NCBI RefSeq assembly: GCF_009914755.1
Contig: NC_060928.1
Source: the human T2T-CHM13v2.0 reference genome, Homo sapiens
DNA length: 64,000 bases
Direction: 5' to 3' (one strand)
In this document: piece by piece, positions 23,849 through 40,035 of the stretch
Layout: each line of letters begins with the position of its first letter
Position numbering within the stretch: position 1 is the stretch's first letter
Program-made: the position numbers and the translations under genes
The notes under the pieces: generated by a model
What the model was told of the DNA's origin: nothing
The model's input: the letters and a program-made list of their open reading frames with translations, nothing else
Database searches by the model: none

Positions 23849-24855
23849 CTTTCTGGTTTTATCTACCTTTGGTCTTTGATGATGGTGACGTACAGATGGG
23901 GTTTTGGTGTGGATGTCCTTTCTGTTTGTTAGTTTTCCTTCTAACAGTGAGGACCCTCAGCTGCAGGTCTGTTGGAGTTTGCTGGAAGTCCACTCCAGAC
24001 CCTGTTTGCCAGGGTATCAGCAGCAGAGGCTGCAGAACAGCAAATGTTGCTGCCTGATCGTTCCTCTGGAAGCTTTGTCTGAGAGGAGTACCCGGCTGTG
24101 TGAGGTGTCAGTCTGCCCCTACTGGAGGGTGCCTCCCAGTTAGGCTACTCGGGGGTCAGGGACCCACTTGAGGAGGCAGTCTGTCTGTTCTCAGATCTGA
24201 AACTCCATGCTGGGAGAACCACTGCTCTCTTCAAAGCTGTCAGACAGGGACATTTAAGTCTGCAAAGGTTTCTGCTGCCTTTTGTTTGGCTATGCCCTGC
24301 CCCCAGAGGTGGAGTCTACAGAGGCAGGCAGGCCTCCTTGAGCTGGGGTGGGCTCCACTCAGTTCGAGCTTCCTGGCTGCTTTGTTTACCTACTCAAGCC
24401 TCAGCAATGGCAGGCGCCCATCCCCGAGCCTCGCTGCCGCCTTGCAGTTTGATCTCAGACTGCTGTGCTAGCAGTGAGCGAGGCTCTGTGGGCGTGGGAG
24501 CCTCCAAGCCAGGAGCAGGATATTATCTCTTGGTGTGCCGTTTGCTAAGACCGTTGGAAAAGTGCAGTATTAGGGTGGGAGTGACCCAATTTTCCAGGTG
24601 CCATCTGTCACAGCTTCCCTTGGCTAGGAAAGGGAATTCCCCGACCCCTTGCACTTCCCTGGGTAAGGTGATGCCTCGTCCTGCTTCGGCTCATGCTCGG
24701 TGGGCTGCACCCACTGTCCTGCACCCACTGTCTGACAAGCCCCAGTGAGATGATCCCGGTACCTCAGTTGGAAATGTCTCTGCATTTTCTGCGTCGCTCA
24801 CGCTGGGAGCTATAGACTGGAGCTGTTCCTATTCGGCCATCTTGGAACTGCCCTC
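23849..24855. promoter_or_regulatory. L1 5'UTR with sense promoter (minus) and antisense promoter (plus, PTPN13 direction); YY1 site gccatctt at 24836-24843
   Basis: Complete 5'UTR sequence; activity inferred from family knowledge only. Confidence 0.6.
24407..24748 (+). CDS. L1 ORF0 homologue, open and extended to 113 aa (putative)
   Basis: gcaATGG Kozak; MAGAHPRASLPPCSLISDCCASSERGSVGVG...IRVGVTQFSRC matches the recalled L1HS ORF0; expression not shown. Confidence 0.6.
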   Translation: MAGAHPRASLPPCSLISDCCASSERGSVGVGASKPGAGYYLLVCRLLRPLEKCSIRVGVTQFSRCHLSQLPLARKGNSPTPCTSLGKVMPRPASAHARWAAPTVLHPLSDKPQ

Positions 24856-26592
24856 ACTGCAACTCTTGCAGACCCCTAAATACACTGCCTTGGTGAACTT
24901 GGATAAGATAAGGAAGATTCCCTAGGTTAGCAGGCAAAGTCACTTGCTCTCTTTTCTCTCTTTTCCCCAGTCAGAAGGAACCTCTCTCTGTACTAGGCTG
25001 CCTGGAGTTGAGGGAGAGGTGACACAGACTTTCCTGTGATCACCACAGCTGACACTACAGAGTCTCACCTGAAGGCTTGCAGACCAGCACAGTACTGGAG
25101 TTCACCAGTACTGGTAGCCACTACCGCCTAGCTGCTGCTGATGTTTATTCAAGGACCATGACCACTTTAGTCAGCAGGTGGTGAATCCTGCTGGGACTGA
25201 GTCTCTTCCATCAGGACAGTGCATTTTCTTCTGGCCCAGAATGGGTCTAGAAACACCATCTAGGAGCAAAGACTTGGAATTGGGGGCTTCGGGAATCTGC
25301 TAAGCTGGTGCCCAAGTTGCAAGACAAAGTCCTCTGTGCTCTTCCCACTCCATCCTCCACATGGAAGATGTCTCCCCAAGAGCTGCACTGCCTGGAACTG
25401 GGGAGGGGTGATACAGGCACTCCCTTAGCTGCCACAGTTGGTTTTGCCCTGGGTTGCATTCCAAGTCCACTGCCTCTGAGACTAGTGCAGCACCAGCGTT
25501 TGCCTGAGGACTGCAGTCCTTGTGGCCTGACTGCCACTCAAATTTATTCTGTGATCCAGGCCACTTTAGTCAGCTGGTGGGGAAGCCCCACTGGCCTGAA
25601 ACTGGGTTCTTCTCGCTGGAGTTGGGGATTCCCCTGTGGCCCACTGGTAGTCTGAATGCTCCCTCCATAGGCATTGACGGAATTCCTACCTGTGTTGTGT
25701 TCTGCTATGACAGAGCAGCACTGAGCTCCATTGTAAAGTCCCCCACTAACTTCACTCTCTCCTCCATGCACATAGACTCTGTCTCCTCAATGCACTGCCT
25801 GGGATTGCTGTAGTCAATGCAAGACTGTCTCTCCTACATTCTTGAATGCCTCTTTCCTTGATAAAAAGTACCTGGTTTGAACATAGGTACTTTTATCACT
25901 CACCTGATCTTTTTGTTCTTATGAAGATGCTTTCTTGCATGGATGGTTGTTCAATTTAGTGTTCCTGATGGGGGATTATTGCTCAGGGTTCTATCTGGCC
26001 ATCTTGCTCTGTCTCCTACTTCCTGGTTATTTTTAAAAACTTCTGTTTTCTTTTCAAAGAGAAAATTAGTAAAATAGAAAATAGTGCTGAAGAGATCACC
26101 CTAATACTAAAAATATGAGAGAGTTTAGGTTTATGAAGCATTCAATGAGAAGGTCCAACATACCTCTGAGTTCCAGAAGGAAAACCAAGAGGATAGGAAA
26201 CAGAACAATTAATGAAGATATAATAGTTGATAATTTTTGAGAGCTGATAAAATATATAGATCTTCAAATTCTAGAAGCTTAAGGCACAGTCAAAATTTTA
26301 AAAAAAATTCTACACGTAGATTAATGGGATTGGAAATACAGGACACCATAAACAAGGAGAAGGTTTTTAAAGCAGTCAGAGAGAAAAAGAAAGCTGAATT
26401 ATCTACAAAGAAAAAGGAATTAGCTAAGAGCAGACTGAACAGTAAAAATAAGGTCAGAATTTGGTAGAATTAAATAAATTCTTAAAACTACTTAATTTCA
26501 CTAAGAAATAAAATCTTAAAACTGCTGTGAGGATACATCATAATTATTTTAAGGAAAAAGAGAAAATATTATCACTATAACAACCTAGAATA

Positions 26593-27392
26593 ACATTGTC
26601 TAATAGAAATATCATAAACATCATATATAATTTAATGTTCTCTATGACCTGCATTAGAAGGATGAAAAGAGATAGATGAAATTGATTTCTGTATTTTATT
26701 TAATCCAATATACTAAAAATATCATTTTCATATGTAACCAGTATGAAAAAGTGTTAATAATATGTTGTACACTTTATTTGTACTAAGTCATCAAAATCTA
26801 ACACTCATAACATATGCCAATTCAGACTCTAAATTTTATCAAAAATATTTATATTTCATAAAAAATACAGATGAAAAAGTAATTTACATACCTAAGTTGT
26901 TACAAGCATACTTAGAAGTTTTCCAATATCTGATTAAGTATTCATCTGAAATTAAATTTTAAATAAATTAAAAACTCAATTCCTCAGTTTCTGAAGCCAC
27001 ATTTCAAATTTTTAAAAGTGACCAGGTGTAGTGGCTCACACCTGTAATCCCAGCACTTTGGGAGGCCAAGGTGGACGGATCACTTGATGTCAGGAGTTCA
27101 AGACCAGCCTGGCCAACATGGTGAAACCCCGTCTCTACTAAAAATACAAAAATTAGCTGGGCATGGTGGTGCACGCCTGTAGTCCCAGCTACTCAGGAGG
27201 CTGAAGCAGGAGAATTACTTGAACCTGGGAGGCAGAGGTTGCGGTGAGCCGAGATGGTGACACCGCACTCCAGCCTGGGTGACAGAGTAAGACTCAAAGT
27301 CTCAAACTACAACCACAACAACAACAGAAAAAAAAAAAAGAAAAAAACTTAAAAGCCACACGTGCCTGATAGCCACTGCATTGGAATGTACA
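26593..27392 (+). mobile_element. MER3/MER33-like hAT-Charlie DNA transposon interrupted by an Alu
   Basis: cattgtctaatagaaat...tattttatttaatccaatata...gccacatttcaa...agccactgcattgga. Confidence 0.6.
27020..27347 (+). mobile_element. AluSx-like
   Basis: Full Alu body, mixed tail. Confidence 0.9.
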
Positions 27393-38150: not shown

Positions 38151-39856
38151 TCCCCTTAGTTGATAATTTGACAGAAATTGATTTTAGATTGTTTTGTGAT
38201 ATCTGTGACATGAAATCTCATGGTTTTGAATGGTATCTTTTTGCAAGGGAAATATTGTTTTGCTTTGTCAGTTCTTTTCCAGCTAGATTGTGTGTTGTCT
38301 GTGTATGAAATAACTAAGAGGCGGCTTTTAACAGAAAACTTGTATAGTGACTGTAAAATACGACAACATATACCTAAGATTATGAGCTGTGATGATTCAT
38401 TGAAATGATTCATTGAAATGTATTTGGCAATAACAATTGTGAGCCAAGTTTCAGAAGTCTGATGTATGATTGGTTAAGGCTTTGAGGACCATTGGTCTAT
38501 AACACCACTTCAGTGCAACCTAAGATGTGCTGACTGATTAAAAGTTGCATTCAAACACATTTTTCTTCTTTGACACCATTATTAAAGACATGTCTCAGAT
38601 TCATAAACATGCAGGTTTTTGACCTTCAAAGGAGGAATGACTTTTAGTAGTTTACTTTTTAATCATAAGTCATATTCTGATCATGTAGATGATAGGTAGA
38701 AGTTAAAAAGTCAGAATGATTCAGTCCTGATTTAAAAAAAATTCAGTTCTGGTTGTTTTCAGGAAAGTATAGATACTGTATGATAAACTTTTCCATGAAC
38801 TTCTGTCAATGTCTTATCATTTGACAGAGTGATATCAGTATAATTTATTCAGATTGAATAATGGAATTTCAGTCATAGGCCTTTTGTGATTTTTCTATAG
38901 CTATTATCTTGAGTCTATAACCAAGTTCACCTAGCAGTTTTCTTAAAACCTGTATTAACTTACTTTTTATATGAGGGACAAAATAAAGTTTATTCTAATC
39001 AGTCTGTTTTGTTGAGCCTAATGTACAGCTTTACTTCTAGGTGGAGGCCTACTGGTGTCTAGGGAATGTATTTGTGTTAATACTCTTAGGTATGAGCTCT
39101 TAGGCATCTATACAGCCAAGCATTAAAACAAAAAGTTAAGGGACCTCATTGATCACATTTGGTAGTACAAAACAAGCTGCCTGAAATGCTAGTGAAATAA
39201 TGAACAAATGTAAATAAGATAAAATCTAAATTCAAGCAAAATATATACTTCGACTCAAGACATTTCATTGTAGTTAGAAACCTTGTGAATGCCTAACAGG
39301 AATTTTCAAAGGAATTGATTTCTATCCATTTCAGAACACTATAGTCTAAATCGGAATCTTAACTTGGGATCTATAAATGGGTTATAAGTAGATCCATAAA
39401 ACTTCAGAATTTATACAGAGCTTTATATTTATGGGCAATGTCCTTGAGAGAGAAACCACACCTTTCACCAATTTCTTAAAGGAATGCATAATTCAAAAAA
39501 CATTAAAGAGCTACTAATCCTTATCCATATCTATATGTCACGTTGATAAAACATTTGAACCAAGTTTAATTCTTAAGAACAATGAAAGGGCTCTATTTCT
39601 AGTTTCTAGGATCTACCATCCAGATTTTGAAAGATTAAGCCAAATCAAGGCATTGTTGTTAATAATGCTACCTGTTGTATTTGTATGAAACCCAATCTTT
39701 TTGTAGCATGTTGATTTGGTATATGTTAACTACTTATTAACATCTATACAAATAGGCTGCATTATCCATTGAAGTGATTGCTGTTTCCTGTGATTATAAT
39801 TTTAAGCAATTTTCTTCTTTTTTTTTATTTTTTATTTTGGTGCAATTACAAACCAG

Positions 39857-40035
39857 TAAGCCTAGCTGATCCTGCTGCCCTTGGCTTCATCATTTCTCCA
39901 TGGTCTCTGCTGTTGCTGCCATCTGGTAGTGTGTCATTTACAGATGAAAATATTTCCAATCAGGATCTTCGAGCATTCACTGCACCAGAGGTTCTTCAAA
40001 ATCAGTCACTAACTTCTCTCTCAGATGTTGAAAAG
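39857..40035 (+). CDS. PTPN13: PTPN13 exon 3 (aa 39-98, KIND)
   Basis: cag|TA AGC CTA... completes G|TA Val; VSLADPAALGFIISPWSLLLLPSGSVSFTDENISNQDLRAFTAPEVLQNQSLTSLSDVEK; donor AAG|gtaact; 179 nt, cumulative 294 nt (phase 0). Confidence 0.95.

What the first reader, a model, noticed from the sequence alone, without database searches (positions are those of the whole stretch)
24407..39857. L1 antisense-promoter ORF0 exon predicted to splice in frame into PTPN13 exon 3
Seen: the intronic L1 5'UTR lies antisense to the gene, so its antisense promoter faces the PTPN13 direction. ORF0 starts at gcaATGG (24407) and stays open past the point where L1HS ORF0 stops. It contains a consensus donor TGG|GTAAGG after 24662. 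24407-24662 is 256 nt (85 codons plus G), i.e. phase 1, the same as native exon 2, so joining to exon 3 (TA AGC...) rebuilds Val39 exactly. Established: L1 antisense promoters drive chimeric host transcripts (e.g. L1-MET) and ORF0 forms fusions with proximal exons. I recall GTGAGG at this position in the consensus, so this copy may have a strengthened donor. Inference: an L1-driven PTPN13 isoform in which 85 ORF0-like residues replace KIND residues 1-38, expected where L1 is hypomethylated (tumours, germline, early embryo).
Basis: partly seen in the sequence, partly recalled or inferred. Interest (0 to 1): 0.8.

Follow-up and report, generated by a model that had tools for sequence, protein, structure and literature searches.

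The report
Untested in-frame L1 exon in PTPN13
An old, half-length L1 retrotransposon in intron 2 of PTPN13 carries a start codon, open frame and splice donor that would join in frame to exon 3, but this looks like a chance layout of a well-known mechanism and no evidence was found that the transcript is made.

Summary
The sequence observation is correct. ATG 24407 opens a 113-codon frame. TGG|GTAAGG ends a 256-nt, phase-1 exon at 24662. Joining it to exon 3 (39857) rebuilds Val39 and stays open through exon 6.

Most of this is inherited L1 anatomy. The ATG, the long open ORF0 frame and the donor occur in the nearest genomic copies of this ~25-My-old L1 group. ATG plus an open frame to the donor is found in 11 of 29; the donor GT in 28 of 29. 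What is private is a 1-nt insertion at 24660, which shifts the donor from phase 0 (26 of 29 relatives) to phase 1, and G>A at 24665.

By U1 pairing energy the donor is not stronger than in relatives. A RUNX-type motif in the antisense-promoter region is privately mutated. An out-of-frame upstream ATG (24292) lies 115 nt before ORF0.

No transcript evidence was found. PTPN13 is absent from an EST catalogue's supplements. A brain/glioma list names only a different PTPN13 L1. One methylation atlas lists this element (HepG2, 51.5% methylated).

Verdict: a latent, plausible but unproven new instance of known L1 ORF0/antisense-promoter fusions. Interest is low.

The parts
21868..24855 (-). 5' half of an L1 (about L1 nt 1-2994: 5'UTR, ORF1, start of ORF2), antisense to PTPN13, in intron 2. 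RepeatMasker label L1P1, '3prime-truncated'.
   Evidence: BLAST against a full-length relative, L061: window 24851-21868 matches its nt 185-3178 at 92.1%. The 5' terminus was read from the alignment. Lanciano 2024 Table S2 has the row chr4:86654381-86657369:-:L1P1, PTPN13.
24250..24450 (+). Expected antisense-promoter region (L1 nt ~400-600), placed by position only. It holds a privately mutated RUNX-type motif (TGGGGT at 24344-24349, where relatives have TGYGGT).
   Evidence: The position is inferred from the L1 coordinate; the 400-600 range and the RUNX3 site are recalled, not read. The motif is TGYGGT in 17 of 29 relatives, and C>G at 24346 is private to this copy.
24292..24471 (+). Upstream ORF (59 codons) in another frame, overlapping the ORF0 start. 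It would compete with ORF0 if transcription starts upstream of it.
   Evidence: The ATG at this column is shared by 24 of 29 relatives.
24407..24748 (+). ORF0-like open frame, 113 codons plus TGA.
   Evidence: 45-47 of its first 64 residues are identical to the 71-aa ORF0 of 10 young copies. No Pfam family at E<=10.
24407..24662 (+). Predicted coding part of an L1-derived first exon (85 codons + G, phase 1).
24660..24660 (+). Private 1-nt insertion (T) that moves the donor from phase 0 to phase 1.
   Evidence: Alignment of 30 copies. Relatives are phase 0 in 26 of 29, phase 1 in 2 of 29, phase 2 in 1 of 29.
24663..24668 (+). Splice-donor motif GTAAGG (G>A at 24665 is private; relatives have GTGAGG).
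   Evidence: Best U1 match among all GT sites in 24300-25400 (-9.7 kcal/mol), within the range of the five native PTPN13 donors in the window (-5.6 to -11.0).
24598..24603 (+). Upstream donor-like site CAG|GTGCCA (exon end 24597, phase 2). It corresponds to CAG|GTGCGT inside the 71-aa ORF0 of young copies. Joined to exon 3 it is out of frame, with a stop after 67 aa.
   Evidence: U1 duplex energy -6.8.
24399..24662 (+). Hypothetical 264-nt cassette exon (acceptor AG ending at 24398) that would be in frame and stop-free between exons 2 and 3.
   Evidence: Motif scan only, no transcript evidence.
2743..2857 (+). Native coding part of PTPN13 exon 2 (residues 1-38 + G), which the L1 exon would replace.
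   Evidence: The peptide matches Pfam KIND profile positions 1-33 of 197 (E 0.013, below the cut-off for a fragment).
39857..40035 (+). PTPN13 exon 3, the proposed acceptor exon (enters in phase 1).
   Evidence: Hub annotation. It is single-copy in the genome, so there is no retrocopy.
21495..21878 (+). Inverted L1 piece (about L1 nt 2955-3336) abutting the internal end of the 5' half.
4078..7323 (+). L1 3' half (about nt 2880 to the poly(A)) on the opposite strand, 14.5 kb away. Possibly the other half of the same element.

Best explanation
This is the decayed 5' half of an L1 roughly 25 My old (RepeatMasker label L1P1). It lies antisense in PTPN13 intron 2, so its antisense promoter points along the gene.

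Its ORF0 start codon, its long open ORF0 frame and its donor are ordinary inherited features of this L1 group. One private 1-nt insertion just 5' of the donor happens to put the donor in phase 1, the phase that exon 3 needs. The result is a latent in-frame alternative first exon.

If the antisense promoter fires upstream of 24407, splicing from 24662 to 39857 is the expected outcome. The product would be 85 ORF0-like residues fused to PTPN13 lacking residues 1-38.

The most likely state is that this is silent or present only in traces, and that the frame match is chance rather than an adapted isoform. The sequence facts are shown. Promoter activity, junction use and translation are inferred and untested.
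For: - Coordinates, frame and phase are as stated.
- Family origin of the features: ATG present in 26 of 29 relatives, ATG plus a frame open to the donor in 11 of 29, donor GT in 28 of 29. In the primer-matched sample, 7 of 30 copies have the ATG and a frame open to this donor, all in phase 0.
- Phase 1 is caused by a private insertion at 24660.
- This copy is no less decayed than its relatives: 31 of 548 sites differ from the majority, non-CpG 4.2% against a median of 4.2%. That gives no sign of constraint.
- The donor is not stronger than in relatives.
- A promoter-region motif is privately mutated, and there is an out-of-frame upstream ATG.
- Two transcript-based lists do not contain this element, and no full-text hit was found.
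- Background rate: Criscione 2016, citing Denli 2015, gives 57 observed ORF0-exon fusions among about 3200 genic ORF0 loci (passages).
Against: - All sequence prerequisites for a productive fusion are present at once. These are a strong Kozak context, an 85-codon open frame, the best donor in the region at native-donor strength, a retained YY1-type core at the L1 5' end, and no AATAAA/ATTAAA between 24200 and 24700.
- L1PA2-8 antisense promoters are reported to be active at the same place as in L1HS (Criscione 2016 passages).
- The element is only about half methylated in HepG2 (0.515; Lanciano 2024 Table S2).
- The negative lists are shallow: ESTs, 11 brain/glioma samples, and 42 MCF-7 chimeras.
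- Denli 2015 and its fusion list could not be read.
- Two private changes sit within 6 nt at the donor.
Confidence: 0.6

Rival explanations
1. The L1 antisense promoter does drive a real PTPN13 isoform in hypomethylated cells. Its first exon ends at 24662 and splices in frame to exon 3, giving an ORF0(85 aa)-PTPN13(39-end) protein.
For: The in-frame join is confirmed. The donor is the best in the region and comparable to native donors. The ATG context is strong. Older L1PA antisense promoters are reported active and ORF0-exon fusions are known. The element is 51.5% methylated in HepG2.
Against: No transcript evidence was found in any source searched. The RUNX-type motif is privately changed to TGGGGT. 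The upstream ATG 24292 is out of frame. Only 57 of about 3200 genic ORF0 loci showed fusions. The genome holds no retrocopy of exon 3 that could record germline expression of a chimera.
Confidence: 0.2
2. The antisense promoter is active at some level but the products do not encode the fusion. Possible reasons: starts downstream of 24407; starts upstream of 24292, so that the upstream ORF is translated; use of the phase-2 donor at 24597; or unspliced read-through that ends in the intron.
For: The upstream ORF 24292-24471 overlaps the ORF0 start. The donor at 24597 gives a 67-aa dead end. There are 40 AATAAA/ATTAAA hexamers between 24663 and 39856. The one PTPN13 chimera on record, from another L1, was detected as read pairs across the L1 boundary rather than as a splice.
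Against: The 24662 donor is clearly the strongest (-9.7 against -6.8 for 24597). There are no data on start sites at this locus.
Confidence: 0.12
3. Exonisation rather than promoter use. The strong donor pairs with a cryptic acceptor in the L1, so that transcripts from the native promoter include an L1 cassette exon. That exon would be either the in-frame 264-nt exon 24399-24662 (88 residues inserted into the KIND domain) or a stop-containing one.
For: The acceptor-like site ending at 24398 gives a 264-nt exon with no stop in the exon-2 frame. Five other candidate acceptors give early stops. The frame is open upstream back to 24104.
Against: This rests on a motif scan only. The pyrimidine tracts are mediocre (0.65-0.75). 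No annotated exon is listed here in the one transcript shown, and no literature was found.
Confidence: 0.05

Closest known systems
L1 ORF0 and ORF0-exon fusion transcripts (Denli et al. 2015, Cell 163:583; known here only through passages of citing papers)
   Same: A primate L1 5'UTR read antisense. The ATG is in a strong context about 445 nt from the L1 5' end. The ORF0-like peptide shares 45-47 of its first 64 residues with young ORF0. Donors in or after the ORF can join host exons.
   Different: Here the ORF is the older, longer form (113 codons, not 71). The donor in question lies 38 nt past the stop in young copies. The phase is set by a private indel. No expression or peptide evidence exists. 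Whether PTPN13 is among Denli's 57 fusions could not be checked, because the paper is not held.
L1-MET and other L1 antisense-promoter chimeric transcripts (Speek 2001; Criscione 2016 catalogue of 988)
   Same: An intronic L1 antisense to the host gene, downstream of the host start site, with its antisense promoter facing the next exon. Activity is expected on hypomethylation (Criscione passages).
   Different: Those are backed by ESTs, RT-PCR or long reads. PTPN13 has 0 occurrences in Criscione's 10 held supplementary files.
PTPN13 L1 chimera Id_828 of Pinson et al. 2022 (Table S2)
   Same: Same host gene, same orientation (L1 on -, chimera on +). Reads were seen in 7 of 8 gliomas and 3 of 3 controls.
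   Different: It comes from a full-length 6118-bp L1PA6. The window holds no full-length minus-strand L1, so it is a different element, further downstream. It was detected as read pairs across the L1 5' boundary, not as a splice into an exon.

Membership tests
L1 antisense-promoter / ORF0 fusion transcript | L1PA-type 5'UTR present with its 5' end intact, oriented antisense to the host gene and upstream of a host exon | tested here: met
   89-92% identical to 29 genomic L1 5'UTRs over 551 nt. The L1 is on the - strand and PTPN13 on the +; it lies in intron 2, 15.0 kb upstream of exon 3.
L1 antisense-promoter / ORF0 fusion transcript | ORF0 start codon in a good initiation context | tested here: met
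   ATG 24407, with G at -3 and G at +4. It sits at the same column as the ORF0 ATG of young copies.
L1 antisense-promoter / ORF0 fusion transcript | Frame open from the ATG to a splice donor | tested here: met
   85 codons are open to the donor at 24662.
L1 antisense-promoter / ORF0 fusion transcript | Donor phase compatible with the downstream host exon | tested here: met
   Phase 1 matches exon 3, and the join is open through exon 6. It is met only because of the private insertion at 24660.
L1 antisense-promoter / ORF0 fusion transcript | Transcription initiating in the L1 antisense promoter at this locus | not testable with these tools
   No CAGE, RNA-seq or EST data are at hand. The indirect signs are mixed: mCG 0.515 in HepG2, but the RUNX-type motif is mutated.
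L1 antisense-promoter / ORF0 fusion transcript | Observed splice junction from the L1 to the host exon | tested here: not met
   Tested only against published lists. There are 0 occurrences of PTPN13 in Criscione 2016's supplements. Pinson 2022 Table S2 lists only another L1. In Lanciano 2024's nine held files PTPN13 occurs only in Table S2, not in the chimera table S7 (file 4 was cut when stored). Junction compendia could not be queried.
L1 antisense-promoter / ORF0 fusion transcript | Translated fusion peptide | not testable with these tools
   No proteomic or ribosome-profiling data are available.

The most novel reading that the evidence does not exclude
The private 1-nt insertion and the G>A at the donor are not accidents. 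On this reading they are the fixed steps of an exaptation that turned an old L1 5'UTR into a methylation-gated alternative promoter plus coding first exon. The product would be a primate-specific PTPN13 protein whose KIND N-terminus is replaced by an ORF0-derived segment, made in germline, early embryo or tumours.
Probability: 0.05. Interest if true: 0.55.

Novelty: new member of a known kind. Interest (0 to 1): 0.2.

Why it matters
If the transcript exists, it would add PTPN13 to the genes with an L1-driven, methylation-sensitive alternative start. PTPN13 is a large scaffold phosphatase, described in the literature as I recall it as both a tumour suppressor and a promoter. The transcript would also be a rare case where ORF0-derived residues are fused in frame to a nearly full-length host protein, which could serve as a tumour-restricted junction peptide.

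As it stands, the finding shows how easily such layouts arise. About a third of old L1 5'UTR copies sampled still carry an ATG, an open frame and a donor (11 of 29; 7 of 30). In-frame matches to a following exon should therefore occur by chance at many loci.

Tried and rejected
1. Donor 'strengthening'. U1 duplex energies did not separate GTAAGG from GTGAGG. The measure tolerates G-U pairs and register shifts. MaxEntScan and SpliceAI are not available, so this remains inconclusive.

2. Retrocopy search. Exon 3 DNA matches only itself in the genome. There is therefore no processed copy that could have recorded a chimeric mRNA.

3. Protein database search with the 85-aa segment against longer proteins. 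It returned 2083 hits with E <= 0.001 among 2144 candidates. I read 5 of the 120 listed. All were unspliced genomic reading frames over L1 copies. The top hit is this locus read through two TGA codons. The collection holds no spliced isoforms, so it cannot answer the question.

4. Pfam on the ORF0-like peptides: no family at E <= 10.

5. Literature access. Denli 2015, Speek 2001 and Matlik 2006 are not held. The positions of the two donors named by Denli and of the antisense start sites could not be read.

6. Single-element-plus-inversion model for the two L1 halves. A target-site-duplication-like match (8 of 9 bases) is offset by 6 nt from the L1 5' end, and the overlapping pieces differ by 3.5-5%. 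The model is suggestive but not resolved.

7. The ICF/DNMT3B paper that held all three search terms does not link PTPN13 to an L1. The five PTPN13 + LINE1 hits were seen as a search listing only; three of them are hepatitis B or viral-oncogenesis reviews.
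Full report
**Observation**

The + strand at 24407 reads TCAGCAATGG, an ATG with G at -3 and +4. The frame runs 113 codons to TGA 24746-24748. TGG|GTAAGG places an exon end at 24662. 24407-24662 is 256 nt, which is 85 codons plus G.

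The native exon-2 coding part (2743-2857) is 115 nt, which is 38 codons plus G. Exon 3 begins TA AGC at 39857. The computed join reads ...GNSPTPCTSL-V-SLADPAALGF... and stays open through exons 3-6.

**What the element is**

Window 24300-24850 matches 39 other places in the genome at 89-92% identity; 5901 first-look candidates were found, of which 40 were scored. Against a full-length relative (L061), window 24851-21868 on the minus strand aligns to its nt 185-3178, about L1 nt 1-2994, at 92.1%. NCBI's mask stops at 24421, but the L1 continues to about 24855.

Lanciano et al. 2024, Table S2, lists chr4:86654381-86657369:-:L1P1:REF as '3prime-truncated', with closest gene PTPN13. It was detected in 1 of 12 cell lines (HepG2), with a methylated-CpG fraction of 0.515. 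Length, strand, gene and truncation fit this element. The hg38-to-T2T offset also fits the gene start as I recall it.

This copy differs from the majority of its 29 nearest relatives at 31 of 548 sites. At non-CpG sites the figure is 21 of 500, or 4.2%, equal to the relatives' median. With a recalled neutral rate of about 0.17% per My, that is roughly 25 My, the L1PA5-6 age range. This date is an inference.

**Which features are inherited and which are private**

Among the 29 relatives:
- The ORF0 ATG is present in 26.
- The frame is open to the donor in 14, and in 11 of these together with the ATG.
- The donor GT is present in 28, and its hexamer is GTGAGG in 25 and GTAAGG in 0.
- The ATG-to-donor distance is 255 nt (phase 0) in 26, phase 1 in 2 and phase 2 in 1.

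A second sample was the first 30 chromosome-1 loci, out of 1869 genome-wide exact matches to a published L1.3 primer.
- Ten copies carry a 71-aa ORF0 with its stop at nt 214-216. All ten have a donor-like CAG|GTGCGT at nt 191 (phase 2) inside the ORF. All ten also have a GTGAGG donor at nt 253-254, beyond the stop.
- Seven older copies have the ATG and a frame open to this donor, all in phase 0.
- Three loci did not align usefully (L031, L036, L037).

So 'open past the L1HS stop' is the ancestral state of older L1 subfamilies, not a property of this copy.

Three changes private to this copy matter here: a T inserted at 24660, G>A at 24665 and C>G at 24346. In all, 16 private alignment columns were found. 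The insertion alone converts the family's phase-0 donor into the phase-1 donor that exon 3 needs.

**Donor strength**

Duplex energies with the U1 5' end give -9.7 kcal/mol for this donor. That is the best of all GT sites in 24300-25400, and it lies within the range of the five native PTPN13 donors in the window (-5.6 to -11.0). TGG|GTGAGG scores -9.8, and 25 of 29 relatives score as strong or stronger. The claim of a strengthened donor is therefore not supported by this crude measure. The claim that this is the dominant donor of the region is supported. The alternative donor at 24597 scores -6.8 and gives a 67-aa dead end when joined to exon 3.

**Promoter and leader**

No expression data can be reached with these tools.
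- By position, the antisense promoter should lie near 24250-24450. The 400-600 range is recalled, not read.
- A RUNX-type core TGYGGT is present at this spot in 17 of 29 relatives, but reads TGGGGT here through the private C>G. That this is the functional RUNX3 site of the antisense promoter is recalled from Yang et al. 2003, not read.
- An ATG at 24292, shared by 24 of 29 relatives, opens a 59-codon ORF in another frame that overlaps the ORF0 start. It matters only if transcription starts upstream of it.
- 18 CpGs remain in 24300-24851 (observed/expected 0.39), within the relatives' range of 9-26.
- The YY1-type core at the L1 5' end is retained. Criscione 2016 reports YY1 enrichment at L1 antisense promoters (passages).

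**Evidence for use**

- Criscione 2016 (passages; 10 supplementary files searched) catalogues 988 EST-supported L1 antisense transcripts. PTPN13 occurs 0 times.
- Pinson 2022, Table S2 (header and first part read), holds one PTPN13 row, Id_828. It comes from a 6118-bp L1PA6. The window has no full-length minus-strand L1, so that is another element.
- In Lanciano 2024's nine held files, PTPN13 occurs only in the methylation table (that file was cut when stored).
- Full-text searches for PTPN13 with LINE-1/antisense promoter, chimeric transcript/L1PA, retrotransposon/alternative promoter, transposable element/chimeric, and LINE1 gave no relevant paper.
- Exon 3 has no second copy in the genome.
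- The large protein collection holds only unspliced frames.
- Denli 2015 is not held, and paper reading closed before more supplements could be searched. So it is not shown that the junction is absent from print.

**Chance**

Criscione, citing Denli, gives about 3200 genic ORF0 loci, of which 57 showed ORF0-exon fusions. In my two samples about a third of old copies keep the ATG, an open frame and the donor (11 of 29 and 7 of 30). A phase match to the next coding exon has a prior near 1 in 3. In-frame layouts like this one should therefore exist at many loci without selection (inference). This copy is as decayed as its paralogues, which gives no hint of constraint.

**Consequence if used**

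The product would replace PTPN13 residues 1-38 with 85 ORF0-like residues. The exon-2 peptide matches Pfam KIND profile positions 1-33 of 197 (E 0.013). The ORF0-like segment matches no Pfam family. It shares 45-47 of its first 64 residues with young ORF0. The rest of the protein would be intact.

A second in-frame possibility is a 264-nt cassette exon, 24399-24662, between exons 2 and 3. It rests on a motif scan only.

**Verdict**

The mechanism is known. The specific isoform is unproven and rather unlikely to be more than a trace product. Odds:
- Latent chance layout: 0.6.
- Real in-frame L1-driven isoform: 0.2.
- Active promoter with non-fusion products: 0.12.
- Exonisation: 0.05.

**Side observation**

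A 5'-intact, 3'-truncated L1 cannot arise directly by retrotransposition.
- The missing half (about nt 2880 to the poly(A)) lies at 4078-7323 on the opposite strand.
- A 384-bp inverted piece (about nt 2955-3336) sits at 21495-21878.
- The break coordinates in the L1 nearly coincide.

An old inversion of about 17 kb inside intron 2, with breakpoints in one L1, is the simplest reading. The target-site evidence is weak.

Noticed in passing
window 4078-7323 (+), 21495-21878 (+), 21868-24855 (-): The L1 5' half that carries the finding lacks everything past about nt 2994. An L1 3' half (about nt 2880 to the poly(A), 94% identical to the same relative) lies 14.5 kb upstream on the opposite strand, and a 384-bp inverted L1 piece abuts the 5' half. 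The near-coincident break coordinates suggest one full-length minus-strand L1 split by an inversion of about 17 kb within PTPN13 intron 2. A target-site-like match (8 of 9 bases) is offset by 6 nt, so this is not settled.
   Followed up: partly
window 24422-24855: The first ~430 nt of the L1 5'UTR, which hold the ORF0 region and the donor, are not masked as repeat in NCBI's file according to the hub's list. They are nonetheless 89-92% identical to many L1 copies.
   Followed up: yes
outside the window, further downstream in PTPN13 (Pinson 2022 Table S2, Id_828): Another L1, a full-length 6118-bp L1PA6 on the minus strand, gives + strand L1/unique-sequence chimeric read pairs in 7 of 8 gliomas and 3 of 3 control brain samples. 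An antisense-promoter transcript of PTPN13 from an L1 is therefore on record, but from a different element.
   Followed up: partly
P0001, covering window ~24040-24920: A public protein collection holds a 293-aa 'protein' identical to this locus read through two TGA codons as W. This is a gene call on primate-sized DNA under a bacterial-type code and is an annotation artefact, not a gene.
   Followed up: no
window 24776-24790: This copy has a private 5-nt deletion and four substitutions clustered near L1 nt ~70-80, downstream of the ORF stop. No consequence for the finding is apparent.
   Followed up: no
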